From Neocallimastix sp. 'constans' (lineage: Eukaryota): DNA of 64,000 nt. The translations under genes and the position numbers were made by a program. Under the pieces are notes generated by a model, which made no database searches, was not told the DNA's origin, and saw nothing but the letters and a program-made list of their open reading frames with translations. Below are positions 2,050 to 26,735 of this stretch, piece after piece (the first letter of the stretch is position 1; each line of letters starts with the position of its first letter). The DNA is taken from the NCBI GenBank assembly GCA_050613775.1, contig JBODTK010000140.1, positions 372,001 to 436,000 of the forward strand, written 5' to 3'.

Positions 2050-2084
<35 letters not shown>

Positions 2085-2297
2085 TTATAACATTTTAATG
2101 TTATAATATTTTTTGATGGAAAAATATATATATATATATTAACCTTCATGCTCTTCAAATTTATCTATTAATGTTCCCATTTTATAATCCCAAAGTTGAA
2201 TTGTACCATTATGTAATGATGCAAGAATCCAAGGTCTCTTTGGGTGGAACGAAAGACCTTTAACTCTATTTGATTTTGTTTCAAATTTTGAAAGCAT
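1..2297 (-). CDS. COP1: Coatomer subunit alpha (alpha-COP), 5' portion; exons approx. 2297-2144, 1781-1440, 1353-1138, 1018-800, 718-498, 398-249, 124-<1
   Basis: Spliced translation starts [38 protein letters not shown]... and continues [27 protein letters not shown], the alpha-COP N-terminal WD40 propeller. All introns are GT-AG and keep frame. The gene continues beyond position 1. Confidence 0.95.
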
Positions 2298-3364
2298 ATT
2301 ATTAAAATTGCATATATATATATATATAAATTTCTATCTATTGATTTATATTTTAATAAAACAATATAATAATATTAATATTTTTTCTATATTTTATTTT
2401 TTATTATTTTGTTTACTATTTTATAACTGAAAACAAAAATTATTTTAATTTAATTTGAAATTATATAAATTAGAAAATAAAATCAAATTTATATTTTATT
2501 TATTATTATTTTATAATTATATACCAATAATTTAATTCTAGATTATATTCACAATTGATTTATTGTAAAATTTTATTTAATGTCAATATAAATATAATAA
2601 ATAAAAATAAAAATAAAATATATTATATTGTTTTATTATTGTTTTATTTTAATTTCAGCATTGGTTTTGTGGTTTTTTAATTTTAATTTTTGTTTTGTTT
2701 ATAAAAAAATATAATAAAATAAAAATAATAATGATAATTATTAATATAAATTATAATGTTTATAAATATAAAAAAGCTTTTAAAAAACAATTATTTATTA
2801 ATAAACATTAATAATAATAAATTTGAAAAATAAATATTTATATAATTAAATAAATAAATAATAGCAATAATAAAAATCCTCTATACAAATATATTATTTT
2901 TTTATTTAGTTATTATATTTTATTTTTTCGTTTGTTTGTTTATTGATTAATATTATTTAAACTTTATATTTACTTTTTCTTTCTTCCCTTTTAATATATT
3001 ATCTAATTTATTATATAAGTTTTATTATTCTTTTTCTAAAATTTATTTTTAATTAAGTATTAATTTTAAGTAGAAGAAGAAGAAAAAAAAAAACTTTAAT
3101 TTTACTTTTTTTTTTTTCTTCTTTCAATTTTTTATTTATTTATTTAAAAGTCTTATTTCTTTATTTTAAATATATATTTGAAAATTTAATTAAAAGTTTT
3201 CATATTAATATTACTAATGATTATATTTATGGTTTATACATTAGATTTATTGCAAATCATATTAACAAATCATAGAATAACACATTAATGTATGTACTGT
3301 TACTAATTAACAATTTATAATCATGTTGGGAACATGTGTAAATATAATCTTTATAATAAATTTC

Positions 3365-4235: not shown

Positions 4236-6358
4236 TTAGTCCTTAGATTTCTTCTCTTTTTTTTCTTTTTTGTCCTTCTTATCTTTCTTATCTTTTTTTT
4301 CTTTCTTTTCTTTCTTTTCCTTCTTTTCTTTCTTTTCTTTCTTCTCCTTTTTATCTTTTTTATTATTCTTTTCTTTCTTTTCCTTCTTAACTTCAACTTC
4401 ATTATCTATTTCCTCCTCAGCCTTTCTTTTCTTTCTTGGTTCTTCTGATTTTATAGTAGAATCAGCAGCAGAATTGTATGACGATGAAGAAACAAAATTG
4501 AACTTCTTTTGCTTAGCTTTACCACTGGCAGAACCAGCATTAACAGTATGAACAGAACGTCCTTCTAATTGACGAAGACGATTTTCAATCTTATTACGTA
4601 ATTCTGTACCAACTTCTTTGGTATCCTTATCACCTAAAGCATCACAACGAACTGAAATAGCAGCTTTAGAAGCAACAGTACGAGCCATCTTACCCTTTAA
4701 TTTTGGACCTGCTTGACCAACGTATGAGGCGTGATATATGAGACCATATTTTGGAGTATCATGCTTTGTTTTAAGGGCACGGAATAAAGCCTTTTCAGCA
4801 CCTAAAATTTGAACAGTAGAAGCCGGATGTTTAGCAAGATTTAATAATGAACCAGCATGAGCAATTAAACGAGCTCCAACTAACTCTCCAACTAATGTTG
4901 TTAAATTTGGAGCAATAGCTTGCATACGATTCTTTAAGTAATCATAAAGTTGAGTACGATATTCAGTAAGAGAAATAATTTGATCACATAAAAGATGAAT
5001 ATTTTCAATATCTTCTTCACTGATTTCAGTACCCATAGAAATTTCAGCGGCTTCCTTAACTTCTTTTTCAAGTTCTTCTGGAAGAATATCAGAGAAATCA
5101 GTATTTTGAGCATTAGTACGGAATCCCATTGCCTTAATAGTTTTAGCATAAGCTAAATTATCAACAATAATTTTGGCAATTTCTGGGAAATGCCATCCAT
5201 ACCATTCCTTAACTCTCATAGCATAAGTATTTAATTCTTTATCAAGATCATCTAATAAATTAATTGCTTGAATAATCATAGTATCAACCTTATCTGGTGA
5301 AAACTTTAACTTATAACGAGAAAGAGAATGAGATAAACCTAAAACCATAGCATTCATATCTTCTTTTTTCATACCTGTAATTAAACTTTCATATTGAGTT
5401 CTAATACCACGCATTAATTCAAAAACTGCATTATCAGAAACAACTTGGATACCAAGTTTCTTTGTAATAGCATTACCTTTTTTAAATCATTACATTTATT
5501 ATATTTATTATTATTATTATTAATATTACCATTTATAAGATTTTAAATATTAATATAAATTATATACTTATTTTAATTATATTTATGATTAGTATTAAAA
5601 TTAATAATAAGAAACATACCTAATTTTGAATCTGAAACAGCTAATTTCTCTTTTATATCCTTTTCACTCAATTCATTTTGTAAGAATTTCTTTAAATTCT
5701 TTGAAACCTTTCCTTCAACAATAGCAGTAGCAGCTGAAAGTGCATCAGTAGTATTTTCAAACTTTGAAAAAGCTTTAAGTTTTAAACTATATAATATTAT
5801 AATTATAAAAATTAATCTTATTAATTCTAAAACCATTTTATTTTATAAGTTTGAATTTTTTAATAATGATTCCTAATTTTAATAACAACTTTTTTATTAA
5901 TTATGAATATTTAATATAATTCCTTTTATATTTATTCAATCATCTTTCTCTTATTCTTTTTAAATATATATAATATATTTATATCCTAAATAATCCTTTA
6001 TCATTATAATATTAAATAAGTAATAATTTAATCCCCAATATAAATAAATAAATATAAATATATAATACTTATTATTTTAAAATTTAAATGTTCGTATATA
6101 TATATATAATATTTATTCCACAAATTAAAAAAAAAAAAAAAAAAAAAAATTAAATTTCAATAAAATAAAAAATGCTTCTAATAATTTTATACATTAATTT
6201 TATATTATAATTTGTTTAAAATTTTTTAAAACATACATTTTATTTGCTGCTTCTGGTGTTTCAAAGTTCTTCCAAATATCATCAACATTTTTAAGTTGAC
6301 CTTCATCGGCCATTTTAAATAAAGCATAACCAGCTGGAGTCTCAAATAATACAAGCAT
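4236..6358 (-). CDS. NOP58: Nucleolar protein 58 (box C/D snoRNP core); exons 6358-6237, 5786-5620, 5476-4236
   Basis: Starts [15 protein letters not shown]. Contains [27 protein letters not shown], the Nop domain [32 protein letters not shown] and a KKE-repeat tail. GT-AG introns keep frame. Confidence 0.95.
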
Positions 6359-7690: not shown

Positions 7691-7797
7691 AAAATTTATC
7701 ATACATTAATAAATATTTTTCATATGGACAATATAAAAATTAATAAAAAAGTAATATATTAATACAATTATTTAAATTTTTAAAATTTATCATACAT
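7691..7797 (+). repeat. ~91-bp tandem duplication; the second copy is split by the outer Copia element and resumes at 20574-20659
   Basis: aaaatttatcatacat occurs at 7691 and 7782. The rest of the unit (taataaatatttttcatatggacaatat...) recurs immediately after the 3' TSD. Confidence 0.75.
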
Positions 7798-8077
7798 TGT
7801 TAGAAATAAAGTTTAATATTATGATACTTGTTAAAAATAAAGTTCAAATAGTATAGTAATTTATATTATATATATTTAAATCTCTATGTATGTATGTATG
7901 TATGTGGCTTAATACATATAATATTAATATGAAGTTATTGTGTAATTGATGTAGTAAAAAACTAATACATGTAATTAGTATAAAATAAAATAATAATTTA
8001 ATAATTAAATAAAATAGAACTTAAATAAATAAAAAAAAAAAATAAAAAATAAAATAAAATAAAAATAAAAAACAAAA

Positions 8078-8092
8078 GATTAAGAGTCTCAT
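8078..8092 (+). promoter_or_regulatory. Primer-binding site of the inner Copia, complementary to the anticodon arm of tRNA-Lys(CUU)
   Basis: gattaagagtctcat abuts the LTR. Its reverse complement ATGAGACTCTTAATC matches the anticodon stem-loop of eukaryotic tRNA-Lys(CTT) as I recall it; the host tRNA is not in the window. Confidence 0.8.
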
Positions 8093-8100
8093 TAACAGTA

Positions 8101-9141
8101 ATGAGTGAAAAAAGGAATATAACGAATACTGTTGAAGAAACAGTAAATACATTAAACCAAATAAATACAGTAAACATAGCAAATAAACCAACTACTACAA
8201 AACACCTATTAACATCAAATAACTACAGACTATGGTTAACGGATATGGATCTTTTATTAGTTATTAATGATGTTGATGACTATGTTTACGAAGAAAAGGT
8301 AAAAGTTATAAAGAAAAACAAAATAGCTAAAGAAAATCTAAAGAAATATAAAAAGGTTAGAGGTTGTGATGACCTATATTATGAAAAAGACGTCACAAAA
8401 GAAATGATAAAGCTAGATTCTTTAGCTAAGCATCTGATAAACAATAGCATATCAGATGAAATCAAAATTAAATTAGATTTTCAAAGATCTAGTGCCTATC
8501 AAATTTGGAACATTTTAAAAGCAAGTAATACTAGATCAAATGAAGAAAGGAAATTAGAATTAAAAAATAAGTTAGAGAATATGAAATATAACAAAGAAAA
8601 TGATATTTCATTATTTATTGAAGAAATGAACAACATTTTCAATGAATTAAGTAGTCTTGAAATGGAAATCAGCGATGAGAAGAAATTTGAATATCTTTAT
8701 CTCGCTCTTCCATATGAAATAACATTGGAAGTTAACATAATGGACCACGATGGGAAATGGGAAGATGTTACCAAATGTCTAAAAAAGAAGGTCCCTAAGC
8801 TAAAATATCTTAAGGAACTTAGAAAAGAAAATAACCACAAGAATAATACAGTAATAAACGTTAACTCAATGACCAAGAAAAATAGATTCACACCAAGAAA
8901 CAACAGAGGAAGAAAAAGATGTTATATATGTAACAAGCTAGGACATATAGCACGGGACTGTTGGCATAATGAAAAGAACAAAAGAAAAAAGAACAATAAT
9001 ATCAAAGCCAACAACGCAAGTATAAACAAAGAGGATGGGTATTGCGAATTTGCTGATGCTCAAATAAGCCTCGAAGATTACAATTCAGATGAAGATATCC
9101 AATCCTCATACTCCGTTCGACCGAGGCGTGGACGCTACTAA
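8101..9141 (+). CDS. gag: Copia Gag (inner element)
   Basis: 346-aa ORF just after the PBS. N-terminal NYRLW..DM motif and CX2CX4HX4C knuckle CYICNKLGHIARDC. Confidence 0.92.
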   Translation: MSEKRNITNTVEETVNTLNQINTVNIANKPTTTKHLLTSNNYRLWLTDMDLLLVINDVDDYVYEEKVKVIKKNKIAKENLKKYKKVRGCDDLYYEKDVTKEMIKLDSLAKHLINNSISDEIKIKLDFQRSSAYQIWNILKASNTRSNEERKLELKNKLENMKYNKENDISLFIEEMNNIFNELSSLEMEISDEKKFEYLYLALPYEITLEVNIMDHDGKWEDVTKCLKKKVPKLKYLKELRKENNHKNNTVINVNSMTKKNRFTPRNNRGRKRCYICNKLGHIARDCWHNEKNKRKKNNNIKANNASINKEDGYCEFADAQISLEDYNSDEDIQSSYSVRPRRGRY

Positions 9142-12100
9142 AGCAGAAAATAACATGCCGAGACAAAACCTCAGTTATTATGTGACTGCCCCGTCAACTA
9201 AAGCGAAGCTACCAAGTAATATAGTCAGTTGGACAATTGACTCCGGAGCCACCTATCACATGACAAATGCATTATCAAGTTTAATAGATAAGATAAGGTG
9301 TGAAGAAATTATCCAATTCGCTGACGGAGGTACAGTTACTGCTACGTACAAAGGTACGTACGTAGGATATATTAACAATAATGAAATTACATTACGAAAT
9401 GTATTATATATTCCTAAATTCAAAAGAAGTTTGTTGTCAATAGACAATTTAAGTGAGGAAGGTTATAAAACAATATTTTACAATTTTAATAATAAAAATT
9501 TAGTTACCATTTACAACAAAGAAGGCAAAAGGATATTTACTACCAAATCTAATAAATCCAAAATATATAAAGTATGGACTTTCAAAAATAAAATAGAATA
9601 TAATAGGGACAACAACAAAAAGACTATTACATGTGACAATATTATAAAAGCTTTCAACACAGAAAACATGGAGCTATGGCACCGCCGTCTTGGCCACTTT
9701 TATATAGATAACATTAAGGAAAAATTAAATAATATAAACATACAAAATAAATGTATAATATGTGCGTCCAAGATGAGAAATAAACCTTATAACAAAGCAA
9801 GAAACAAATCAAAAGAGCCGTTTGAACTTATACATATGGATACAGTGTCATCCCTAGATAGCTCCATATATGGAAATAAATATTTCTTAAGTATATTAGA
9901 TGATTATACCAGGTACGGATGGGTCTTTTTTATGAACTCAAAAGCCGAAGTGTTCAATATTTTCAGAAAATGGTATAAGAAAGTCACCAACATTTTCAAC
10001 AAAAATATTAAATATATACGAACCGACAATGGTACTGAGTTTACAAATAATAACTTTAGGAAATTTTGTGAAGAAAATGGTATTGAACAACAATTTTCAA
10101 TACCTTACAACCCACAGCAAAACGGAAGAGCCGAACGTTTTCAAGAAACCCTCATTTATAACGCCACCGCCATGCTCAAAGACGGTAAGCTAAATCATAA
10201 ATATTGGGAAGATGCTGTAAGGACAGCAAATTACATTCATAATAGGTTACCACATAATGGTAACAACAACAAAGTGCCTTTTGAGGAATTATATCAAGAA
10301 AAGGTCGATTATGAAAAGTTTAGAGTATTTGGTTGCCAAGTTTACTTTTATATCCCAAAACAATTTAGGCGAAAATTCAACGGAACCTCCCTTCCTGGAA
10401 TATTTTTAGGATATGATGATAAAAATCCAACAGCCTACATAATATATGATACTACAAATAATAAAATAGTCCTTTCAAGGACAGTTGAATTCTTCGAAGA
10501 TACCCCTGGTAATATTTCCGCACCTTCTACAAGACCAGAAATATATAACTTTGAGGTTAATATGGAAGAATACGATGAAAATAACAAAAATACAGTATTA
10601 CTCCAAGACTATAATAACAAAAATAAGGAACATGAAAATAAAGAGACAACAGAAAATAGAGAAGAAAATAAAAATAATAACAATATAAATAATAATGATA
10701 ATTTAAATAATTTAAATAATAATTATTTAGAAAATAATAATTTAAATAATAATAATAATAATATAAATAATAATTATCCAAATGATAATAATTTAAATAA
10801 ATATAATTTTAATAAAAATTATTTAAATGATAATAATATTAATTTTACTTATAGTCCTAATCCAAATAAAAATTTTCCCCAATCAACCAATATAATTGAC
10901 CCATATAAAAATTATAATAATTATAATATTTTACCTTTAAATAATTTAAATAGTAATATAAGTAGCAATTTACCTTTTGCAGAAAACTTAAATCCGGCCA
11001 TTTACAATTATAATGCTGGATTTATAAATCCTAATTTAAATTATTTAAATAAAAATAATTATATTCAAAATGAAAATTATAATAATTTTCTAAATGAATA
11101 TAAGGGTCATTTATATTTAAATGATAATAATTTAAATAATAATTATATTAATAAAATTATAAATTATGAAAATAATGCTCAAAATTCATCAAATTCAGGA
11201 AATTTAAACAATAAAAATTCAGAAGATAATTCTCAAGGTAAATATAATTTAATTAACAACATAAACAATAAAAATGATAAAATGGAACAATCCATACATA
11301 ATTCAAATTGTAATGATAACGTTATGAATGGAAATTCAAGTTCCATTGATAATAATTATGTAAAAAATAATTATATTCCAAATAATAATTTATATAAAAA
11401 TAATTTTAATACAAAAATGAGAATTAATAATTTATATGATGGTCAGTCGAATATGAACGATGTCCAACGTATAAATAATAATTCTAATATAAACAAAGAA
11501 TTAAATTCAAATATAAAAAATGAATTAAATTCAAATGTAAACAAAGAATTAAATTCAAATGTAAACAAAGAATTAAATTCAAAAGTAAACAAAGAATTAA
11601 ATTCAAATATAAATAATGAATTAAATTCAAATGTAAACAAAGAATTAAATTCAAATGTAAACAAAGAATTAAATTCAAATGAAAATAAAGAATTAAATTC
11701 AAATGAAAATAAAGAATTAAATAAATTAGATATGAATAATAAATCAAATAATTCTACAATATCAAATATTAATAATGATAAAGAAACACCAGATAAAACA
11801 AATAATAAGAAAACAAGTAAACGTAAAGGAAAGAGAAAACTTGATTCAGAAACAAAACCTGAATCAAAGAAATTAAAATCATCAAATTTAAAGGACAAGA
11901 ACGTTAAACGGAAAGGTAAGAGAAAACTTGATTCTGAATTAAAACCAGAATCAAAGAAAATAAAATCATTTGATTTAATGGATATAATAGAAGATAATTT
12001 TTCTTTATTATCTACAAAGGAGGAGCTGTGTGAACCCTATAATTATCCTGATATATTCAATAAAATTGATAAAAATGAATGGTTACAAGCAGTCAAGGAG

Positions 12101-13543
12101 GAATTAAACAGCATGAAAAACTTAAAAGTTTATAAGAAAGTTGATAGGGTACCCAAGGGTAGTAATATAATAACACCAAAGTGGGTGTTCAGATACAAAT
12201 ATAATTCAGACAATAGTATAAATAAAAGAAAAGCAAGACTGGTAGCCAGAGGTTTTACACAAAAACAAGGCATTGATTATAATGAGACGTTCTCGCCCAC
12301 ATTGAAACAGGACTCTTTGAGAATAGCAACTGCTATTGCATCAGCCAATAACTTTAATATATATCAAATTGATATAAAATCAGCCTACCTAAACGCTACA
12401 CTAAACGAAGATGTTTATATGGAAATTCCAGAAGGTGCTGAAGATTATAAAAATGGCTATTGGAAACTAAATAAAGCCTTGTACGGTTTGAAACAGTCTG
12501 GTCGTTTGTGGAACGAGACTTTAAATGAAAAACTTATAAATATTGGTTTTAATAGACTTCGAAGTGAACCATGCATTTACGTTAAAATGAATGATCGGAA
12601 TAAAATTATTTGTCTTCTTACAGTTTATGTAGATGATATATTATTAACAGGTAATGAACATGAAGTATATAAAACAAAACATTTATTAAAAAATTATTTT
12701 AACATAACTGATATAGGTCCTGTGGATACAATCATTGGCGTTAAATTTATAAAAGAAAAGGACGGCTATCTATTGCAACAACATAAATATCTAGAGAATA
12801 TATTAAGAAAATTTGATATAGATAAGTATAAAATATCTTCAAATATGATACCAGAAGAAAATGAAGAATTAAGAAAAAGAAAATTCAATATCACGAAATA
12901 CCAACAAGCTATAGGTAGTTTATTATATCTCGCGATATGTACTAGACCGGATATCTTATTTCCTGTGAATAAAGCTTCCAGAAAAGCCAAAGATCCAAAT
13001 TATGAAGATTGGTATAATGTCATCAAAATATTTAGATACCTCAAGGGAAAACCTAATTATGGTTTAAGGTATTCAGGAAACTTAAAATTAAATGTTTATG
13101 TAGATGCAGATTACGGAGGAGATGTAGAGTCTAGAAAATCTACTACGGGTTATATAATTAAAATAGGTTCAGGACCTACCTCATGGTATTCAAAATTACA
13201 ACACTGTGTATCTTCTGCCGAAAGTGAATATTATGGAATAAATGAATGCGCTAGACATTGCTTGTGGTATGAAAATGTATTAAATGAATTAAAATTAAAT
13301 TGTAATTGTATAACAATAAATGTAGATAATAAAGCTGCCATTTATAATTGCGAAAATGAAACTATTAACCCAAGATCTAGACACATAGACATAAAATATC
13401 ACCACACAAGAGATCTTATTAAAGAAAATAAAATAAAACTAAAATATATAAAGTCTGAAGATAATCTAGCCGATGGTTTTACAAAGTATCTTAATACATA
13501 TCTATTAAATAAATTTAGAGATTCTATTATGGTGAAGTGTTAG
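9068..13543 (+). CDS. pol: Copia Pol (PR-IN-RT-RNase H), +1 frame relative to gag; frame open from 9068
   Basis: Motifs WTIDSGA (protease); WHRRLGH..CIIC, IHMD, RTDNGTEF, QNGRAER (integrase); KARLVARG, YVDD (RT); DADYGG, DNKAA, ADGFTK (RNase H). Confidence 0.95.
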   Translation, partial: ASKITIQMKISNPHTPFDRGVDATKAENNMPRQNLSYYVTAPSTKAKLPSNIVSWTIDSGATYHMTNALSSLIDKIRCEEIIQFADGGTVTATYKGTYVGYINNNEITLRNVLYIPKFKRSLLSIDNLSEEGYKTIFYNFNNKNLVTIYNKEGKRIFTTKSNKSKIYKVWTFKNKIEYNRDNNKKTITCDNIIKAFNTENMELWHRRLGHFYIDNIKEKLNNINIQNKCIICASKMRNKPYNKARNKSKEPFELIHMDTVSSLDSSIYGNKYFLSILDDYTRYGWVFFMNSKAEVFNIFRKWYKKVTNIFNKNIKYIRTDNGTEFTNNNFRKFCEENGIEQQFSIPYNPQQNGRAERFQETLIYNATAMLKDGKLNHKYWEDAVRTANYIHNRLPHNGNNNKVPFEELYQEKVDYEKFRVFGCQVYFYIPKQFRRKFNGTSLPGIFLGYDDKNPTAYIIYDTTNNKIVLSRTVEFFEDTPGNISAPSTRPEIYNFEVNMEEYDENNKNTVLLQDYNNKNKEHENKETTENREENKNNNNINNNDNLNNLNNNYLENNNLNNNNNNINNNYPNDNNLNKYNFNKNYLNDNNINFTYSPNPNKNFPQSTNIIDPYKNYNNYNILPLNNLNSNISSNLPFAENLNPAIYNYNAGFINPNLNYLNKNNYIQNENYNNFLNEYKGHLYLNDNNLNNNYINKIINYENNAQNSSNSGNLNNKNSEDNSQGKYNLINNINNKNDKMEQSIHNSNCNDNVMNGNSSSIDNNYVKNNYIPNNNLYKNNFNTKMRINNLYDGQSNMNDVQRINNNSNINKELNSNIKNELNSNVNKELNSNVNKELNSKVNKELNSNINNELNSNVNKELNSNVNKELNSNENKELNSNENKELNKLDMNNKSNNSTISNINNDKETPDKTNNKKTSKRKGKRKLDSETKPESKKLKSSNLKDKNVKRKGKRKLDSELKPESKKIKSFDLMDIIEDNFSLLSTKEELCEPYNYPDIFNKIDKNEWLQAVKEELNSMKNLKVYKKVDRVPKGSNIITPKWVFRYKYNSDNSINKRKARLVARGFTQKQGIDYNETFSPTLKQDSLRIATAIASANNFNIYQIDIKSAYLNATLNEDVYMEIPEGAEDYKNGYWKLNKALYGLKQSGRLWNETLNEKLINIGFNRLRSEPCIYVKMNDRNKIICLLTVYVDDILLTGNEHEVYKTKHLLKNYFNITDIGPVDTIIGVKFIKEKDGYLLQQHKYLENILRKFDIDKYKISSNMIPEENEELRKRKFNITKYQQAIGSLLYLAICTRPDILFPVNKASRKAKDPNYEDWYNVIKIFRYLKGKPNYGLRYSGNLKLNVYVDADYGGDVESRKSTTGYIIKIGSGPTSWYSKLQHCVSSAESEYYGINECARHCLWYENVLNELKLNCNCITINVDNKAAIYNCENETINPRSRHIDIKYHHTRDLIKENKIKLKYIKSEDNLADGFTKYLNTYLLNKFRDSIMVKC
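11489..11722 (+). repeat. In-frame 24-bp minisatellite, ~9.7 copies, encoding (V/I/E)NKELNSN
   Basis: gtaaacaaagaattaaattcaaat repeated inside the pol IN-RT linker. Confidence 0.95.
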
Positions 13544-14084
13544 TCACAATTGAACTTTAGGAGGAGTGTTAAAAATAAAGTTCAAATAGTATAGTAATTT
13601 ATATTATATATATTTAAATCTCTATGTATGTATGTATGTATGTGGCTTAATACATATAATATTAATATGAAGTTATTGTGTAATTGATGTAGTAAAAAAC
13701 TAATACATGTAATTAGTATAAAATAAAATAATAATTTAATAATTAAATAAAATAGAACTTAAATAAATAAAAAAAAAAATAAAAAATAAAATAAAATAAA
13801 AATAAAAAACAAAAATACTATATTATAGTTAGTTATATAACTTAGAATATAATATTATTAATATATTAAATAATTAAACATGTATTGTTATGTAAATATA
13901 TCATGGCGCATATATGACGTACATCATATACTTACATAAACAACCAAATATAGTTATATTAAATGTAATAAATAATGTTTATATAATTGTATTATACAAT
14001 TAATTATAAACAATAACCTTATTAAATAAAGATATTATTAAAAGTAGAGATCGAAATCTCAATTTCAAAGAAATATTTTTAATA

Positions 14085-14098
14085 GATTAAGAGTCTCA
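14085..14098 (+). promoter_or_regulatory. Primer-binding site of the outer Copia (tRNA-Lys(CUU) anticodon arm)
   Basis: gattaagagtctca directly after the 5' LTR, identical to the inner element's PBS although the LTR bodies differ. Confidence 0.8.
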
Positions 14099-14277: not shown

Positions 14278-15356
14278 ATGAGTGAATCATTAACAATTTC
14301 ATCTAATGTCAAAGTATTGAGTAAAAAGAATTATCCTTGTTGGGCCTCTGATATGGAACTGTTACTTGTCACCCATGAATTAGAATCTTATATTTACGAA
14401 GATAACGTTAAGATAATACATAAATCAGACAGCGAATACGAAGAAGGATGTATTCCAATTATGTGCACTAAGGACCTGTACTACGCAAAAGGAGTGACTA
14501 AAAAGCAAATAAAAAATGATGCAATGAAAAAAGAATAATAAGTCTTAATCTTGATGACTCAATCATGATTAAAATAGATTTCAGAACAAAATCAGCACAT
14601 CAAGTTTGGAAGCTGATTGAATCTACCTACTTAGAAAGTGAAGAGCAAAGGAAAATAAATTATAGAAAAGAATTGGAAGTAATGTCCTTTAACAAGAATG
14701 AAGATTTTGAATTGTTTTTGTCTAATATGATAAATATTTTTAATAAACTCAAGGATTTAAATGATGAGGTTAGTGACGAAGCAAAATATAATTATCTTTA
14801 TAAATCGTTACCTTATGACCTCATACATGCGACCAACATTATTAGCTATCACGATAATTGGGAAGGATGCTGCAAGCATTTAAATAAAATAATTCCAAAG
14901 TTAAAATTCTTAAAGGAATATAAAAATAATCAATATAACACTAATGCCTTGTTTAGCAGCACTGAAGAAAATAAACATAAAAATGTAAATCATAATTATA
15001 TAAACAAAAGAAATAATACGTACAATATTAATAAAAATTTCAAATGTTATAATTGTGGCGGTTTCGGGCACATTGCAAGAAATTGTAGCAGTAAACGCCA
15101 CATTAACAATGGTAAAAATTACAACTTAAATAAATATAAACACAATAATAAAGGAAAAGAGTATTCATACAAAAATAGAAAATACAATTCTAGAAAAGGA
15201 CGTACATATGCGAACAATGTAGAAGAAACAAAATATGAAGAAAATTATAAAAACATTTATGATAACGTTTTAAATACAGATTACAACGATAATGAACATT
15301 GTGAATCTAATAGTGCGATTGTAGAGAAAAAGATAAGTAATAAAAAGGATTTTTAA
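14278..15356 (+). pseudogene. gag: Copia Gag (outer element) with one frameshift in an A-run near 14527-14533
   Basis: ORFs 14278-14538 and 14565-15356 join into a homolog of the inner Gag (DAMKK/RIISLNLDDSIMIKIDF vs DSLAKHLINNSISDEIKIKLDF). Knuckle CYNCGGFGHIARNC. Confidence 0.88.
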
Positions 15357-18130
15357 ATAACGGCAGTGTACTCCCTATGCAGAATATTGATTATTATACT
15401 GCCGATAATTTAACAATAAATTTACCTAATAAAATCAATAATGACGTTACTGAATGGACTTTAGATTCTGGAGCGTCATATCACATGACTGGGAATGTTA
15501 ATAACATAGTCGACTCTCAAAAACATGAAGTAAGCATCCACTTCGAAAATAATCATATAATTAAATCAAAATTAATTGGAAAACTTGTAGGTTATATTAA
15601 TGGTAACAAAATTACTCTTAATAACGTCTTGTATATACCTACATTCAAGAAAAATCTTCTTTCAATTGATCATTTGAGTAATGAAAACTTTAAAACAGTA
15701 TTTTATAGATACAAAAATAAAAATCATGCTGCTATATTTAATAACAAAAATAAAAGAATATGCACATCAATATCAAATAATTCTAAAGCATATAAAGTAA
15801 TAATGACTAGAAAAAATATTAATATGCCCAACAGATACACTTGTAATAATTTAGAAAAAGCCACAGAAGATAATAATATGGAATTGTGGCACAGACGTAT
15901 AGGCCATTTTAATATTGATTTAATTAAAGATAAATTATCCAAAATTAACATCTCGAAAAGATGTAAAATATGTTCAAAATCAAAACTAAAAAATTTCCCT
16001 TATCTACCTGCAAAAAATAATACCAAAGAAACATTCGAGCTTATTCATATGGATCTAGTATATGTACCAGACTACTCTGTTTATGGAAATAAATATTTCT
16101 TAACTATATTAGATGACTACTCAAGATACAGCTGGATTTGTTTTAAAGAAAATAAAAGTAAAACATTTGATGCTTTTATCAACTGGTACAATCAAATTAA
16201 AAATATTTTTAATAAAAATATAAAGTATATTAAGACTGACAATGGTACTGAATTCTTTAACAATAGATTTAGAGAATTTTATGATAAAACCGGTATAGTA
16301 CATGAGAGTACTATTCCTTACAATCCTCAACAAAATGGAAGAGTTGAGAGATTACATGGAACTTTGATTTCTAATGCAGAGGCAATGCTTACAGATGCAA
16401 AGTTAAATCATAAATTTTGGGAATATGCAGTTTCAACTGCTAATTATATCCATAACAGGTTACCACATAAAAGTAACAATAATAAGATCCCATATGAAAT
16501 ATTATATAATGATAAGGTTGACTATAATAAATTTAGGGTATTTGGGTGTTTAACATATTTCTACGTACCCAAACAATTTAGAAAAAAGTTTTGGAATACC
16601 ATTTTACCAGGTATATTTTTAGGGTATGATGAAATTAATCATACAGCCTATAAAATATATGATATTACAAACAATAAAATAATTCTTTCAAGAGCTGTAG
16701 TATTCATAGAAGATGAATCAGGAAATATGAATTCCCCTTTTTCTACTCCAGACACATTAAATTTCATACCATATTGTGAAATCGAAGAAAATAATGATGA
16801 TATTGAAAATGATAATAATATTGATAATAATGTTAATAATTATAACAATAATAATATAGGTGACAGTAACAATAACTATAATTATAACATTTATAATGAT
16901 AATAATACAACAGAAAATATAGAAAATATGAGAAAATCAAATAATAATAATTATAATAATTATAATTTAAATGAAAAATTTATTAATCCATATTTTAATC
17001 CAAATATTCCTTATAATGATGTTAATTTTAATAATTACCAAAATACTAATAATAATTTTATTTCCCCAATCAATTACAACTATCCTAATGTACCATTTTA
17101 TAATATTAATGAACCAAATTATTTAAATCCTGACTTTAATCCTCAATTAATAAATTCACAAAACATTAATTCTTCATTTATAAATAATAATAAAAATAAT
17201 TTAAATGAACTTTATTCAAATAATAATTATAATTATTTCCAAAATGAAAATAATAAATATTTTTTAAATGGAAATAAAAATTATAATTATAATAATGATT
17301 ATTTATTGAATAATTATAATAACAATTTAAATAATATTAATTATTCAAATAATTTAAATAAAAATATTGTTAATTATAATAATAATAAATTTATAGGTAA
17401 TTCGAAAAATGTAATCAGGAATATTCAGGATAATGAAACAGATAATATTAACGTTGATTTCAATAAAGCAAACAATATTAATCAACCCATTGAGAATAAC
17501 AATAATTCATTCAATATTAATAATCTCCTTAAGGATCAAGATTTAAATAGGATAAATACTAATTTAATTCAAGAAAACTTAAATTTTGAAGTAGATAATG
17601 TAAACAAACCTTTAAAGGAAAATGTATATACAGGAATAAATAATAATGGAAATATTACTAATAATTTAAATTTTAATTATAATAATAATGCCAATGAAAA
17701 TATAAATAAACTTAACTTGAATAATGTTAATGAGTTATATGGGAATGATTTTGATGATAAATATAAACATAATTTAAATGTTAACAATCAAGAAAATATA
17801 AATCATACTACAGGTAATGAAATAAACGTAAGTAATATAACTCATGATAATATTAGTGTAAATGAACCAAATGTTAATTCAAATAATCCGAATACGAATG
17901 AAAGTAATGAGGAATATAATAATTTAAATAAATCTAAAGGTATTTTGAATAAAACTATTATTGAAAAAATAAATATAAATAAAAATATGAATAAGAATAA
18001 CAATGATATATATTCAAATAAAAATAAAAATAGTAATATTAATAATGCAAATGTTGATGATGAATTTGCTGAATTACGAGAACACTTAAAAACCAATTAT
18101 AATAATAATATAAATGAAATATATCATATA

Positions 18131-18190
<60 letters not shown>

Positions 18191-20268
18191 TACTTAAAAC
18201 GTTATGGAGATTATATTAAGGATACATATATTAATAAAAATAATAATGTTAATATGAATGATAAATATAATTACAATACGTTTAATAAAACTAATAAAGA
18301 AAAGGTTAGTATTGTTAACACTAAAAATGCTGACAATAATAATGCAACTTCAAAGAAGTCAGCATATACAAAATAAAAAAGAAAAATACAAAAAATAAGG
18401 TAAATAAAATATTAACTAATAAATTGAATGAAGTAAATAAGGATATTAAACATACTGAACAAGATAAACAAACTAATTCTTTTTATAAAAATAAAAACAA
18501 GATTAAAAGTACTTATGTAAATAAACAAAATAAGCAACAATCTAATATGTTTAATAATAACGATAATAATTCGAAATTAAACATTAATAATAACCAACAA
18601 ATAAGTTTATTATGTACAAAAAGAAAAATTAGATATAACCCAGGAAATAATAACAAACGGTTAAAACCTTTTAGTATAGATAACATTTTAAATAATTACG
18701 TGACTCTTATATCTATTGATAATAATAACTTAAGGGAACCAAACAACTATAGAGATATTTTTAATTTAGAAGATAAAAAAGAGTGGTTGAAAGCCGTCGA
18801 TGAGGAGCTAAATAATATGAAAAAAATGAGAGTGTTTACGTTAATAGATAAAGTACCTAAAGGAGCAAATATTGTTTCTACTAGATGGGTCCTTAAATAT
18901 AAAAAAGACTCAGAAGGAAATATAATTAAACGAAAAGCTAGACTAGTAGCAAGAGGGTACTCTCAAATATATGGTGTGGATTATAGAAATACCTTCTCCC
19001 CCACACTTAAACAGGATACACTCCGAATAATTATAGCTATTTCAGTTCACCATAAATTTAATATTCATCAAATGGATATTAAAGCCGCCTATTTAAACGC
19101 CGAACTAAAGGAAGATATATACATGGAACTACCTGAAGGTCTAAATAAAAAGGGTTTTTGTAAATTAAATAAAGCTTTATACAGCTTGAAACAATCAGGT
19201 AGGATGTGGAATGAAACATTTAATAAAGTATTAATAAGTTTAAACTTTAAAAGGTTCATTAGCGATCCATGTGTATATATTAAAAAAGATAACGATAGTA
19301 ACATAAAATGTATTTTAGCCGTGTATGTAGATGATATTATTATATCTGGAACTGATGCCGAAATTAAGAAAACCAAAAAATTAATTAAAAATAATTTTGA
19401 AGCTACCGATGTAGGTGAGATTGATTTTATAATTGGTATAAAATTCGTTAAATGTGATGACGGTTATTTTATATATCAAATAAAATATTTAGAAGATATT
19501 CTAAATAGATTTGACATAAACAAATATAGTCCAACGTCGAACACCATACCTATTGAATATAAAGAATTAAGAAATAAATACTTTAATCCTACAAGATATA
19601 AACAAGCAATTGGAAGTTTGCTTTATCTGGCTTTAAGTACTAGACCTGATATTCTATATTCAGTCAGTAAGGCTTCAAGGAAATCTGAAAAACCCACATA
19701 TGAGGATTGGTATAACTTATTAAAAATATTTAGATACTTAAAAAAGAACCCAAATTATGGTATAAAATTTTCATATAATGATAAAATTAACCTTGAAGTA
19801 TATGTTGATGCCGATTTAGGTGGCGACAAAGAAACTAGGAGATTAACTACTGGATTTCTAATGCTAATTAATTCAGCCCCAACAAGCTGGTTCTCTAAGC
19901 TTCAACATTGTGTTTCTGTATCAACAGCAAAGAGTGAATATTACGGTATTCATGAATGCGCAAGACACTGCTTATGGTATAAAAATATATTTAAAGAATT
20001 TGGAATCAAACATGAATGTATAACAATCAGCACAGATAATAAAGCAGCAATTTATAATTGCGAAAATGAAACAATTAACCCGAAATCAAAACATATAGAT
20101 TTAAGATACCATAGTATTAGAGAACTGGTAAGAAATAATTATATAGATTTAAAATATATTAAATCTGAGTTTAATTTATCAGACGGTTTAACTAAATACT
20201 TAAATACTACTTTAATGAATAAATTTAGAAATAACATTCTTTCTAGCTTTAATGATCTTAAACTTTAG
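15344..20268 (+). pseudogene. pol: Copia Pol (outer element), -1 frame relative to gag, with one frameshift in the Asn-rich linker (between 18310 and 18376)
   Basis: WTLDSGA, WHRRIGH..CKIC and KTDNGTEF lie in 15377-18376. KARLVARG, YVDD and DADLGG lie in a second frame open 18310-20268. Confidence 0.92.
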
Positions 20269-22875
20269 GGGGAATGTTAGAAATAAAGTTTAATATTATG
20301 ATACTATATTATAGTTAGTTATATAATAACTTAGAATATAATATTATTAATATATTAAATAATTAAACATGTATTGTTATGTAAATATATCGTGGCGCAT
20401 ATATGACGTACATCATATACTTACATAAACAACCAAATATAGTTTTATTAAATGTAATAAATAATGTTTATATAATTGTATTATACAATTAATTATAAAC
20501 AATAACCTTATTAAATAAAGATATTATTAAAAGTTGAGTTCGAAATATCAATTTCAAAGAAATATTTTTAATATACATTAATAAATATTTTTCATATGGA
20601 CAATATAAAAATTAATAAAAAAGTAATATATTAATATACAATTATTTAAATTTTTAAAAGTAGTAAAAAAATAATATGAAAAGTAAATAGCTTAATAAAA
20701 AATTCTATATAATTAAAAATAAATGATTTTTAAAATTTTTTATACTATATATTTTAATAAAAAATTCCATATGATTAGCAAATTTTAAAAATTATTTAAT
20801 AATTATTTTTAAAGTATATAAATATTCAATAATTTTATGAAGCATCAATTTCTTTAAAAGTATAATTATATAACTATTTTTATTTCTGTCTTTCAATAAT
20901 TAACTTTTTTTTTTTTTAATTTCGTTTTAAAAAATAGTATTATTCTATTATTATTATCATTATTTTGTATTTTCAATTTTATTCATACTTATAATTATCT
21001 TTATTTTAATAAAAAGTAAAAATTTCAGTATTTTCGAGACTACTCAAGATAAACAGTATGTAGACAGTAATTATACTATTTTTAAAAGTGTACGACTATT
21101 TTTATCGGAGAGATATCTTCCTTCGCTAACTACTAAATTTATAAAACTCAGGTTAAAATAATACACCAATGTTAATAGAATAGTCCCAACATGTTCAAAT
21201 ACAACATCTCTATCTCAAAACAAACTTATCTTCAGTACAATTTGTAAAATTATAATTTTCATAAAGGAAAAAACACAATTCAAAAATACATTTTATTCAA
21301 ATAGATTTTCAATATAAAATTTATTCCATAATCAAATTTTTCTATTGATCGAATGCCCATGTAAAACGACATAAAACATTCCAATTAATTGACAAGCTTA
21401 GTAATATATATTTTCAAATTATACTCAAAAATTTCAATTTTAGTGACAGCATTAATTATTTAAAATCAAATATTATACAAAATACAAAGACAATAAATTT
21501 TAATACTATAGTGTTCTTACTTTAAGTTACTTTAATACTAAAATATATACATAATTAATTAATATATATCTTTATATTGTAATAATTATAAAAAAATATA
21601 AATATTTTAATTTATTCCCCTTATTTCTCATTTTATAAAACATACATTTTTTTTCTTTTCACATAATATAATAAACTATGATAAAAAAAATAAAAATAAA
21701 ATAAAAAAAAAATTAAATTAAAATGTGAAAAATTATTATCATTCACAATTTCTGTAGTTCTTTATAATTCTTAATAACCTACTTTATATTTTAAATTTAT
21801 GAGATTATATAAATTGTATATCAAATACAAGATATTAAAATTTATAAAAATATGATTGGATAAAAATACCCCACATATATCAATATAATGAAAAAATGCA
21901 AATCGGGATGTATTAAGTAAAAAAATTTATAAAAATGTTTTATCATATTTTATATATATTAGTATAAATTGAAATATATATAAAACATATTTATAAATAT
22001 TTTTATTAAAAAGACTATTTATTAATTACATAAATTCATTTATTAAAAAAAAGAAGAGTTTTTTAGTTTTTTAGGAATATTACTATATATAACAATATAT
22101 TAATAAATTGAAACAAAATTATTTCATATTTATGTAATATATTACAATATATAGTAATTAAAATAATCAAAATAGGAATTATACTTTAATTTTATTAATA
22201 AAATTTAAAATATTAATATTATAATATTCATTTAAAAATAATAATATTAAATCAGCTAAAGATTAAAGTAATAATGTAAAAAAATGATTAAAATTATAAA
22301 TAAAATTTTTTTGTTTTGAATTTCTTTTACTCATTAATCTTTCTTTTTTTTTTTGTTTAATTTATAAAAGTAAATATAAATCATTAAAAGGATTAAAGTA
22401 ATTATATTTAAATTTAATAAGCAAATAAATTTTTATTTTGGGATATGAATGTTAATGAGAGAAAAAAAGTGTAATAAAAAAGTAGATAAGTAAAAGCGAA
22501 CAATACCATAATTTAACTAGATAAATAAAATATATGAAATGAAGATTATACGTTTTAACATTTATTTGAAAAAAATTTACAACTAAAATATATAAACAAA
22601 CTAAATAAAAAAAATAAAAATAAAAATAAAAATTAAAACAAGAATTAAAACAAAAAGCAAAAACTAGAATCAAACAACAAAAATAATAAATTCATTGAAT
22701 AGATAAAACAACAGTAGAAAATATAAATTATTATAATTATTGGAAAATGAAATATCAAATAAAAAATAAAATAAAAGAATAAATTAATAGATTTGAAGTT
22801 TAATAAAAGAAAATTATTTATTGTAATAATTAATAGTTTTTTTTATTTTCAAATACTACAATAGATATTCATAAA

Positions 22876-24015
22876 ATGTTCGCTCTTAAGCCAACTACTT
22901 CATTAGTTTCAAAGTCTCTTCTTCCAAAATCTGGCTTATTAGCAGCCAGATCTCTTTCTTCAACTCCAATTGTCGCTAGAAATGTTATGGTATATATGAA
23001 AATGTTTATTTAATTTTAATAATATAATAATTTAATAATATATAAAAATTTAAAGTTTGTAATTTAGTAAAGTTTAAATATATATAATATAGTTCAAATT
23101 ATATTTTACCCCACAAAATTTATAAATAATTAATGGATAAAAATTAATAAACAAACAAAAAAAAAATATTTATGTTAGTAATATCAAGAATAAATGTAGA
23201 TTTTTAAAAAATTATTTTTTAAAAATAATTTAATATTATAAGATCTAATTAAATAACTTAATTTTTTTATCTAAAATAATAATTAGCCAAGAACTGATGC
23301 TAAACCATCTAACACTGCTCCATTCAAGGTGAATAAATGATTTTTTTTTTTTTTTTGAAATTATTAAAATGTTTTATAAAAATATTGAAATAATTTTATT
23401 TATTAAAATAAATATCTATTATTTGGTTATTTAAAGTTTACCCCAGAAAACTTAAAAAGAGCTGAAGAACTTTTAAAGAAATATCCAGATGATTTTAAAA
23501 GAGGTGCTACTATTCCACTTTTAGATATTGCTCAACGTCAACATGGTTGGTGTAGTGTTCCAGTTATGAATGCTGTAGCTGAATATCTTAATATTCCACC
23601 ACTTAGAGTTTATGAAGTAGCTACTTTCTATACTATGTTCCACAGAGAACCAAGAGGAAAGTACCTTTTACAAGTTTGTACTACTACACCATGTCAAGTT
23701 TGTGGTTCTGACAATATTGTTAATACTATTAAGAAAGAATTAGGTATTAATGTTGGTGAAACTACCCCAGATGGTATGTTCACTTTAATTGAAGTTGAAT
23801 GTGCTGGTGCTTGTGTTAATGCTCCAGTTATGTCCATTAATGATGATTACTATGAAGATTTAACCCCATCAAGCACTAAGAAGATTCTTAAACAATTACG
23901 TAAGGGAATTGTTCCAAAGAGAGGTTCTCAAACCCGTCATTCATGTGAACCAAAGACTGGATTAACTGCTTTAACTTCTGAACCAACTGGTCCTCGCTGT
24001 CGTTCAGATCTCTAA
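22876..24015 (+). CDS. nuoE: NADH dehydrogenase 24-kDa 2Fe-2S subunit (NuoE/NDUFV2 family) with N-terminal organellar targeting peptide; exons 22876-22989, 23287-23328, 23437-24015 (~244 aa)
   Basis: Motifs [27 protein letters not shown] and 2Fe-2S ligands CTTTPC...CAGAC. Exon 1 ([35 protein letters not shown]) is Ser/Leu/basic-rich with no acidic residues. GT-AG introns, phase 0. Confidence 0.93.
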
Positions 24016-24879: not shown

Positions 24880-26735
24880 TATGATTCTGTTCCAATAGGT
24901 AATATTTTATATAAATTAGATTCTTTAGGTATTAGAGGTAAATGTTATCAATTTATAAAAAATCTATATTTGACTTCCAAAGCCAGTGTTAAAATTGATG
25001 ATCAATATTCGGAATCTTTCATATTATGAAAGGTGTTAGACAAGGTTGTCCACTATCACCAATTCTTTTCAATCTATTTATTAATGACATTTTTAAAAAT
25101 TTTTCAGAACTTGGAATTCCTTTAGGCGAATCTAGATGTTGTGGTGGACTCTTTGCAGATGATATTGTTCTATGCGCACCGTCAAGAACTAAGTTAAAAA
25201 AAATGCTTAAGAAGGTAAACGAATGGGCTAAATTTAATATGATGAATTTTGGAATTAACAAGTGAGCAACGATGGTGATTCGACCAGACACACCCACACC
25301 TCTTTTTCAAAATAAAAGAGATCCTACTTTTTATCTTGCTGGTCAACCAATCCCAATAACTAAAATGTTATACCTATTTAGGTATACCATTTGATAAAAG
25401 CTTATCGTTGAACCCTATTATTAAATTACTAAACTCTAAAGTTACTAAAGTTCTCTTTTCTGTAAGTAAATTTCTTTCAAATTCCAAAATTCCTATTCCA
25501 TTTAAGAAGATTATAATTGACTCCTATGTACTTAGTAAAGTCTCTTACTTTGCACCTTTACTTGGTTCAAATAAAGCGAGAACAAATAATACTCAGAAAT
25601 TAATTAATAAAGAATTAAGATGGATTGCAGGTTTACAAAAAGCCAAATCTTTTATTAATGTATATTCTATATCAAAAGATTTAAATATTCCTCCATTGTC
25701 AGCTAAGTGTACTTTGTCTCAAGTCAAATGTTTTGATAAATGGAAAGATTCAAATTGTACTATTTCCTATTTAGTTAATAATATTCCAAAATCAAGAAAA
25801 TATATGTGGATGAAAGAAAGCAGAACTCTTAAACGTAAACTAGAGAAAAGAGGTAATAATGATAATAAAATCAAGGATTTTTATTGGAAAAGAGATATGA
25901 AAATCAATTCTATTAAAGCTGAATTTTATGAAAAAAAACAGATTCGAGGAAACATCAAATTTTATAAAACTTTGTTATGTGCAAAAATAATAGATCAAAT
26001 GTGTCCTAATTTTTGTCCCTGTTGTAAAAGTAATAAACAATGGTTAAGGCATTGGTTAATTGATTGTCCCTTTTTTTTCAATCATATTCGTAGTAAAGTT
26101 AATGATAAATTTTTATTTTTATATAATGCTTTTAACCGTGGCAACCTAACAAATGATATTGTTAATAGTAATAATGATAATAGCAACAGTAATAATAGTA
26201 ATAGTAATAATAGTTATAGTAATATTAGTAATAGTATTATTAATAATGTTAGTAATAGTATTGAAAATAATGTGTATGTTGATTCTAGTGTGTGTAAAAA
26301 AGTGTTTAATTTCCTTCTTGGAGGTCGAAGTATTAATAGCAGTACAAGGGAATGGAAGGATCTATTTAAGTGCCAGATAAAATCAGGTGCTTATCCTGAT
26401 ACTCCATTCTTGGTGGTTACTGCGGCACTTCTTCAATTGATTATACCTATTGCTATTGGCCAGCAATGGTCTTTGTTCAATAGGTTCAAATTGAATCGTA
26501 CTACTACCAAGAACGTCAATGCTGAAGAAACAGTAAGGCAGGCCAGCAGGGCTAGCGCAATCAACGAATGATAGTTTTTATTCACATGAAGTTATCATTG
26601 ATGAAAGAAGTCATTTCTTCCTTGAAATTAATAATATAGTTTTTTAATATTATATAAAAAAAAATTCAAGTATTTTATTTTCATGTATTTTTTTTTTTTT
26701 TATTTTAATAAATATTATTAAATAAAGTTTATTCC

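What the first reader, a model, noticed from the sequence alone, without database searches (positions are those of the whole stretch)
15341..15404. Complete -1 ribosomal frameshift cassette at the gag/pol junction of a Copia element
Seen: pol is in the -1 frame of gag, and both frames are open together for only 10 nt (15344-15353, between a -1-frame TAA at 15341 and the gag TAA at 15354). That window holds an in-phase heptamer G-GAT-TTT (15347-15353). A 7-nt spacer follows, then a 10-bp GC-rich stem (cggcagtgta 15361-15370 / tatactgccg 15395-15404, one G-U) in otherwise AT-rich sequence. Known: G_GAU_UUU is a working slippery site in red clover necrotic mosaic virus and yeast L-BC virus. Heptamer + 5-9 nt spacer + stem is the canonical -1 layout. 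Ty1/Copia elements usually use a single ORF, +1 shifting, splicing or readthrough, whereas -1 is typical of retroviruses and some Gypsy elements. Inference: a Copia lineage that uses -1 frameshifting.
Basis: partly seen in the sequence, partly recalled or inferred. Interest (0 to 1): 0.85.

Follow-up and report, generated by a model that had tools for sequence, protein, structure and literature searches.

The report
Gut-fungus Copia likely slips minus one
In a family of jumping genes from gut fungi, the enzyme gene sits one base out of step with the coat gene in this copy and its sister copies, and the ribosome likely bridges the gap by slipping back one base at a virus-like signal, a route I did not find described for this class of jumping gene.

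Summary
This copy is dead (two further breaks, a nested insertion), so a private indel was the main rival. The data go against it. Four junction-spanning contigs from three public runs keep the offset, while all four runs show the break inside gag is not in their main form. All 10 listed family Gag proteins that reach the end stop at KKDF. In a well-supported Gag clade, 9 of 11 divergent members show [K/E/R]-[N/D]-F at this position, fitting A_AAU_UUY; 0 of 15 single-ORF relatives do. Relatives are from anaerobic gut fungi. Shifting is unmeasured. I got no junction DNA for the divergent families, so their offset and stem are inferred. Rivals: Pol from its own AUG, or splicing. Related elements show a +1 offset with CCG_AGG_C, or one ORF. 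I found no paper on -1 shifting in Copia but could not read the key 2003 survey. This scan earlier noted a similar case in a diatom Copia.

The parts
7798..7828 (+). Left piece of element B's 5' LTR; target-site duplication TACAT at 7793-7797
7829..13814 (+). Element A, a second Copia nested in B's 5' LTR (LTRs 7829-8077 and 13567-13814, duplication ATACT); its pol is in the +1 frame of gag
13820..14084 (+). Right piece of element B's 5' LTR (98% identical to the 3' LTR over 248 nt)
14085..14098 (+). Primer-binding site; holds the 11-nt motif that PMC5445492 gives for FunCo1 elements as complementary to an internal part of tRNA-Lys
14278..15356 (+). gag (Retrotran_gag_2, zinc knuckle); in this copy broken at 14520-14538, where the main contigs of all four laid runs have one more base
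15347..15353 (+). In-phase slippery heptamer G_GAU_UUU, directly before the gag stop
15354..15360 (+). gag stop plus spacer, 7 nt; the stop is TAA here and TAG in the deepest contigs
15361..15404 (+). 10-bp stem with a 24-nt loop, predicted stimulator; a pol-frame AUG lies in the loop at 15377
15344..20268 (+). pol in the -1 frame, order protease, integrase, RT (Copia order); broken once at 18343-18376, and whether that break is private was not tested
20267..20274 (+). Polypurine tract
20275..20573 (+). 3' LTR of element B, followed by TACAT

Best explanation
This Copia family, whose named relatives are from anaerobic gut fungi, keeps pol in the -1 frame of gag and likely makes its Gag-Pol protein by programmed -1 ribosomal frameshifting. 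Shown: the offset, heptamer, stop and stem in this copy and in sister copies, and the conserved Gag ending in divergent families. Inferred: most ribosomes stop after ...KKDF and make Gag. A minority pause at the stem and the stop, the Asp and Phe tRNAs slip from GAU UUU to GGA UUU, and translation goes on as ...KKDF-L-(N or G)-NGSVLPM into protease, integrase and RT. Inferred from protein only: the divergent families use A_AAU_UUY at the same place. The copy in the window is itself defective.
For: (1) Four junction-spanning contigs from three runs have no indel at the junction (table 8): X9 record 26 (depth 248; its 6 gap letters match the 6-nt deletion at 15123), RNA run X13 record 12 (0 gaps over 14786-15900), and X1 records 6 (identical to the window) and 7. 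(2) Internal control: all four runs put a base in at 14526/14527, so the same call does expose a break that the main form lacks. (3) The stop is kept while its sequence changes, TAA to TAG. (4) 10 of 15 listed members of the family's Gag cluster reach the C-terminus and all 10 end in KKDF; the other 5 are N-terminal pieces (15 of 43 members listed). (5) In a Gag tree of 36 rows the family lies in a clade of 11 (100/99), and 9 of the 11 have [KER][ND]F after the conserved DY motif. In 7 it is within one residue of the end (KDF, ENF, KNF, KNFQ, RNF, KNFH, KNFQ); P0032 runs on 17 residues and P0202 is a gene model. The motif occurs in 0 of 15 single-ORF relatives, in 1 of 10 other Gag-only relatives, and at 8 of 3,520 background tail positions; the 15 upstream columns are not conserved. 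(6) In 8 of 8 N-F cases the preceding residue can end in A, as A_AAU_UUY needs (58% of tail residues can; P about 0.013). In the window the change to D comes with an AAG codon, giving G_GAU_UUU. (7) Pol-frame residues upstream of the AUG (S-V-L-P) align with S-M-L-P, S-I-L-P and G-I-L-P of relatives that read this stretch in frame with Gag (P0068, P0201, P0084). This suggests the pol frame is entered before the AUG. (8) A stop right after the heptamer, next to the stimulator, is the layout of several tombusvirid and luteovirus sites (PMC4737148, passages).
Against: No shifting was measured. I obtained no junction DNA for the divergent families, so their -1 offset and stems are unverified and there is no covariation evidence. 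The stem is unchanged in the close copies, which at about 2% divergence says little. The motif was defined after seeing the sequences, and the members are related, so the P value printed is not a valid probability. Two of 11 clade members lack the motif: P0037 ends KKFR and P0033 reads from Gag into the protease motif. Both are eukaryotic gene models, as are P0023, P0024, P0188 and P0202. P0028 (ends VKNK) was left out of the tree in favour of its cluster mate P0188, which runs 7 residues further to KNFQ. One search shows 12 of 20 indel rows and 32 of 280 pieces; X5 has low-depth single-base deletions at 15327, 15350 and 15373. A Met lies 5-9 residues before a shared YY motif in all four two-ORF-type sequences I could see (B, A, L003, P0033). 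The deepest form has an AG/GT at 15356/15357.
Confidence: 0.83

Rival explanations
1. Pol is made on its own from the AUG at 15377 (reinitiation after the gag stop, internal entry, or a junction promoter), and the frame offset is incidental.
For: A Met precedes the YY motif in B, A, L003 and P0033, while Met is only 53 of 3,838 codons. In Candida Tca2 an AUG in the loop of a junction stem was used for new initiation from a weak junction promoter in reporters (PMC2194720, abstract and passages).
Against: It does not explain why each offset comes with its own signal type: a -1 heptamer in B's clade, CCG_AGG_C in the two +1 elements. Pol-frame similarity extends upstream of the AUG. A free Pol would need another way into the particle (the Tca2 paper makes this point).
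Confidence: 0.07
2. A minor spliced RNA joins gag to pol, using the AG that ends the gag stop (TAG) in the main form as acceptor, or the following GT as a donor for a Gag-only RNA.
For: The deepest contigs have G at 15356 and 15357, giving a pyrimidine run plus AG, then GT. Phase-compatible donor-like sites exist at 15091 and 15112. Copia and BARE use splicing for Gag (PMC3735527, passages).
Against: The RNA contig X13 record 12 crosses the junction without a gap, and none of the 4 joints listed lies there. The window's form, also seen in X1 record 6, lacks the AG. An acceptor does not predict the conserved N/D and the residue before it. Contigs drop rare forms and may hold DNA, and 37 loose-end rows were not shown, so this is not excluded.
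Confidence: 0.05
3. RNA polymerase slips on the T5 (or A) run and a minority of transcripts gain a base, fusing gag and pol; or N-F is a protein motif and the bypass is of another kind.
For: The junction holds short homopolymer runs.
Against: The runs are short and common in this AT-rich element. The stem at 7 nt fits ribosome geometry. Single-ORF relatives lack the motif (0 of 15).
Confidence: 0.03
4. The offset is a private indel or assembly error in a dead copy.
For: This copy has two other -1 breaks and a nested insertion.
Against: The junction is the same in independent short-read contigs, including the deepest ones. 10 of 10 complete-ended family Gags stop at KKDF. No fused form was found among proteins of 630-2000 aa (weak evidence by the tool's own note; a fused protein would be near the upper limit).
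Confidence: 0.02

Closest known systems
Ty1/Copia LTR retrotransposons (Pseudoviridae; ICTV profile PMC8515867, whole text read)
   Same: LTRs, PBS, PPT, 5-bp target duplication, Gag with zinc knuckle, Pol order PR-IN-RT.
   Different: Most have one ORF and Ty1 uses +1 (PMC3735527, passages); Ty1, 2 and 4 use +1, Ty5 has one ORF, Tca2 has a stop (PMC7175516, passages). Here pol is at -1 with a heptamer and a stem.
-1 frameshift sites of pea enation mosaic virus RNA2 and yeast L-BC virus
   Same: G_GAU_UUU heptamer; in the plant viruses, a stop at or near its end with an adjacent stem (PMC4737148, PMC8709356, passages).
   Different: The plant viruses have a 5-nt spacer and need long-range pairing to a 3' hairpin; here the spacer is 7 nt and I found no such pairing above chance. 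The host element is a retrotransposon.
-1 gag-pol junctions of retroviruses and Gypsy elements
   Same: pol at -1; Atkins 2016 (PMC5009743, passages) cites 28 of 51 animal retroelements with pol at -1, many with heptamers; fungal Gypsy examples in PMC3441728 and PMC4427930 (passages).
   Different: Integrase precedes RT here, so this is Copia, not Gypsy. The Atkins passage does not split its counts by superfamily.
FunCo1 fungal Copia clade (PMC5445492, passages)
   Same: Same 11-nt PBS motif, described as complementary to an internal region of tRNA-Lys.
   Different: FunCo1 is reported almost only from Pezizomycotina; RT relationship was not tested; I saw no statement on its gag-pol junction.
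Diatom CoDi elements (PMC2806351, passages; earlier AI note e1-9869546)

Membership tests
Ty1/Copia (Pseudoviridae) | Pol order protease, integrase, RT | tested here: met
   Pfam Pol_BBD, rve, then RVT_2
Ty1/Copia (Pseudoviridae) | LTRs, PBS, PPT, target-site duplication | tested here: met
   the LTR starts TG but ends TA, not CA
Ty1/Copia (Pseudoviridae) | Copia-type Gag with zinc knuckle | tested here: met
   Retrotran_gag_2 and zf-CCHC
Programmed -1 frameshift site | Downstream ORF in the -1 frame, conserved among copies | tested here: met
   for this family only
Programmed -1 frameshift site | In-phase slippery heptamer inside the overlap | tested here: met
   G_GAU_UUU at 15347-15353; a documented non-canonical site
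Programmed -1 frameshift site | Stable structure 5-9 nt downstream | tested here: met
   predicted only: z -3.76, spacer 7
Programmed -1 frameshift site | Heptamer conserved in divergent relatives | tested here: inconclusive
   fits at protein level in 9 of 11; no DNA obtained
Programmed -1 frameshift site | Structure supported by covariation | tested here: inconclusive
   stem invariant in the close contigs whose differences I could account for; no divergent junction DNA
Programmed -1 frameshift site | Measured shifting or transframe product | not testable with these tools
   needs a reporter, ribosome profiling or mass spectrometry
Tombusvirid-type site with long-range pairing | Loop or bulge pairs with a distant 3' element | tested here: not met
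   best loop duplex -10.9, near the PPT; all 30 shuffled loops did better (the shuffles were given longer targets, so the control is lenient)
FunCo1 clade / Hemivirus-type priming | PBS complementary to an internal tRNA segment | tested here: inconclusive
   motif matches the published one; no tRNA gene in the window to pair with
FunCo1 clade / Hemivirus-type priming | RT/RNase H groups with FunCo1 | not tested
   no FunCo1 reference was held

The most novel reading that the evidence does not exclude
One Copia radiation in anaerobic gut fungi has switched between three ways of making Gag-Pol: a -1 clade (A_AAU_UUY or G_GAU_UUU plus stem), a +1 group using a Ty1-like CCG_AGG_C (element A and L003), and single-ORF clades. 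-1 frameshifting would then have arisen within Copia and been kept across several fungal genera.
Probability: 0.6. Interest if true: 0.68.

Novelty: new variant of a known kind. Interest (0 to 1): 0.57.

Why it matters
-1 frameshifting is treated as the retrovirus/Gypsy route, and Copia as single-ORF, +1, stop or spliced. A conserved -1 Copia clade breaks that split. With +1 and single-ORF relatives in the same fungi, it offers a natural comparison for how gag-pol recoding signals arise and switch. It also supplies new -1 and +1 cassettes from an extremely AT-rich eukaryote that are easy to assay. In practice, gene callers turn these junctions into Gag-only genes or odd joined models, so the elements would be scored as broken when they are not.

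Tried and rejected
No whole genome is held for this window. DNA of divergent junctions: the metagenome scan gave one locus without the junction (L001). Three viral scans gave nothing relevant. The first genome scan gave nothing; the second gave 69 loci, of which only L003 was a close relative, and it belongs to the +1 group. Letter-by-letter differences of more diverged copies across the stem (such as X5 record 19, 15 differences and no gap over 15341-15444) remain unseen. Six Pol translations from the window were not in the protein collection, so the pol break at 18343-18376 is untested. Rfam: no match up to E 5. Loop pairing with the PPT or other downstream sequence: no better than shuffled loops. 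A short intron from the donor-like site at 15337: rejected, because the deepest contigs have A there. The two other breaks in this copy have no comparable stem (z -1.15 and -0.19). Literature: searches turned up no description of -1 shifting in a Copia or of these gut-fungal elements, judged mostly from listings. Gao et al. 2003 and Havecker et al. 2004 are not held; Gao 2003 could list a -1 Copia. I read no supplements, and Additional file 1 of PMC2806351 may bear on CoDi frames.

Full report
Observation. The two frames overlap for 10 nt, and G_GAU_UUU is the only usable -1 site in that overlap. The hairpin folds at -13.8 kcal/mol with z -3.76 and ranks 7 of 12,150 45-nt windows across the two Copia elements. 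Heptamers alone are common in this AT-rich DNA (73 in phase in 3,834 codons under a relaxed rule), but none of them has a stem as strong at the right distance (best -10.6).

Anatomy. The junction belongs to a full-length Copia, element B. Its 5' LTR (7798-14084) is split by a second Copia, element A. Then come a PBS at 14085, gag from 14278, pol in the order protease-integrase-RT to 20268, a PPT, the 3' LTR (20275-20573) and a TACAT target duplication. The copy has two more -1 breaks, in gag (14520-14538) and in pol (18343-18376). It is therefore defective, and a third private indel at the junction was the obvious null. Named relatives come from Anaeromyces, Neocallimastix, Pecoramyces and Piromyces, so the host is inferred to be an anaerobic gut fungus.

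Is the offset a family trait? Yes. I laid contigs of 4 of the 24 listed runs. All four put a base in at 14526/14527, so the main form lacks the gag break. At the junction, four spanning contigs from three runs show no indel: X9 record 26 (depth 248), RNA run X13 record 12, and X1 records 6 and 7. Record 6 is identical to the window, which rules out a sequencing error. The deepest form differs at 15337, 15356 and 15357, so its stop is TAG. All differences of X9 record 26, X13 record 12 and X1 records 7 and 8 can be assigned to listed places, none in the stem; at about 2% divergence that is weak evidence. X5 shows low-depth single-base deletions near the junction, and the tables were cut (12 of 20 indel rows, 32 of 280 pieces shown). 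In the protein collection, 10 of the 15 listed cluster members reach the Gag end and all stop at KKDF. A search for longer fused forms found none (weak).

Is the signal conserved? At protein level, strongly. A search of 50%-identity representatives plus cluster look-ups gave divergent Gags. In a tree of 36 chosen rows, B falls in a clade of 11 with 100/99 support. Nine of the 11 have [KER][ND]F after the conserved DY motif, seven within one residue of the end, while the upstream residues vary freely. The motif is in 0 of 15 single-ORF relatives and 1 of 10 other Gag-only relatives (P0042). K/E/R-N-F is what A_AAU_UUY encodes, and all 8 N-F cases have a preceding residue that can end in A. The exceptions, P0037 and P0033, are eukaryotic gene models, as are four of the nine positives. 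P0028 was replaced by its longer cluster mate P0188. The motif was defined after looking, and I have no DNA for these families, so their -1 offset and stems are inferred. A quick Pol tree groups B with P0200, P0202 and P0210 (99). P0200 is a 1,503-aa Pol without Gag domains on a 6.4-kb contig, with a same-length cluster mate on a 6.3-kb contig, as expected of separate ORFs.

Mechanism. The most likely route is tandem -1 slippage at the last two gag codons, helped by the stem and perhaps by the adjacent stop. G_GAU_UUU works in pea enation mosaic virus RNA2, where the stop position and spacer matter (PMC4737148, passages), and is the stated site of yeast L-BC (PMC8709356, passages). I found no support for long-range loop pairing and no Rfam match. 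Two rivals remain. Pol could start at the AUG in the loop: a Met precedes a shared YY motif in B, A, L003 and P0033, and Tca2 has a usable AUG in a junction loop (PMC2194720, abstract and passages). Against this, pol-frame similarity to in-frame relatives extends upstream of the AUG. Splicing could use the AG/GT of the main form, but the RNA contig crosses the junction unbroken and no joint is listed there; contigs hide rare forms.

Related elements. Element A has pol at +1 with a 74-nt overlap, and L003 (a contig in a bacterial MAG, likely of fungal origin) has pol at +1 with a 68-nt overlap. Both carry an in-phase CCG_AGG_C, the only in-frame CCG-AGG pair in 3,838 codons of the window's two elements. 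It resembles the Ty1 site CUU_AGG_C, and CCG is the P-site codon of a yeast antizyme site (PMC5009743, passages). A, B and L003 share the PBS. Single-ORF relatives form their own clade of 15 (100/97), with one more fused row (P0068) outside it. The +1 group is not resolved in the Gag tree, and no root or order of events was tested.

Comparison with what is known. It is a Copia by every feature tested, apart from an LTR that ends in TA rather than CA. The papers I could read describe Copia as mostly single-ORF, with +1 in Ty1, 2 and 4, a stop in Tca2, and splicing in copia and BARE (PMC3735527, PMC7175516, passages; PMC8515867, whole text). The -1 fungal examples I saw were Gypsy (PMC3441728, PMC4427930, passages). 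PMC3587641 (passages) reports a two-ORF GalEa-like Copia without giving the frame. Nine literature searches showed no -1 Copia, but Gao et al. 2003 was not available, and its summary in PMC5009743 does not split counts by superfamily. An earlier AI note of this scan (e1-9869546) proposes -1 shifting for a diatom Copia. [quoted passage not shown] Three other look-ups of earlier findings were empty.

Verdict. The feature is real and family-wide, and it is likely a programmed -1 frameshift (0.83). It is a new variant of a known kind, interest 0.57. It would deserve more if the three-way switch among related elements is confirmed at DNA level.

Noticed in passing
window 9068-9141 (CCG_AGG_C at 9121-9127); L003 1296-1363 (at 1316-1322): Two Copia families with pol in the +1 frame share an in-phase CCG_AGG_C, a likely Ty1-like +1 frameshift site. 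Related Gags P0030, P0041, P0042, P0051 and P0097 have Pro-Arg near their C-ends, and the full-ended members of A's cluster end RPRRGRY.
   Followed up: partly
window 7829-13814: Element A is nested in B's 5' LTR; its two LTRs differ by only one base in a poly-A run, so the insertion is recent. Its LTRs, like B's, do not end in CA.
   Followed up: partly
window 8078-8091, 14085-14098; L003 8-20: Shared PBS matching the tRNA-Lys internal-region PBS reported for FunCo1, which was described almost only from Pezizomycotina.
   Followed up: partly
window 15377, 9155; L003 1356: A pol-frame AUG lies near the gag stop in all three elements, 5-9 codons before a conserved YY motif. L003 has a stem there too (z -2.04), with the AUG overlapping just before the stop.
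   Followed up: partly
window 7700-7790 and 20573-20665: About 90 nt of flank upstream of element B is repeated just after its 3' LTR, beyond the 5-bp target duplication; unexplained.
   Followed up: no
L003 1-4414: A fungal-type Copia contig sits inside a bacterial MAG, likely a binning contaminant.
   Followed up: no
window 16780-18340 and 10650-11770: Very long Asn-rich linkers lie between integrase and RT in both elements; A's has a 24-nt tandem repeat at about 11430-11770.
   Followed up: no
window 29609-33236 (-) and 43694-44458 (+): Several related ORFs that look like MULE-type DNA transposases by eye (label recalled, not searched), plus a non-LTR-like ORF at 25360-26571.
   Followed up: no
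window 23407-24015 (+); 4236-5486 (-); 210-2374 (-): Host genes by eye (labels recalled, not searched): a complex I 24-kDa/NuoE-like subunit, a Nop58-like protein and a coatomer alpha-like WD40 gene.
   Followed up: no
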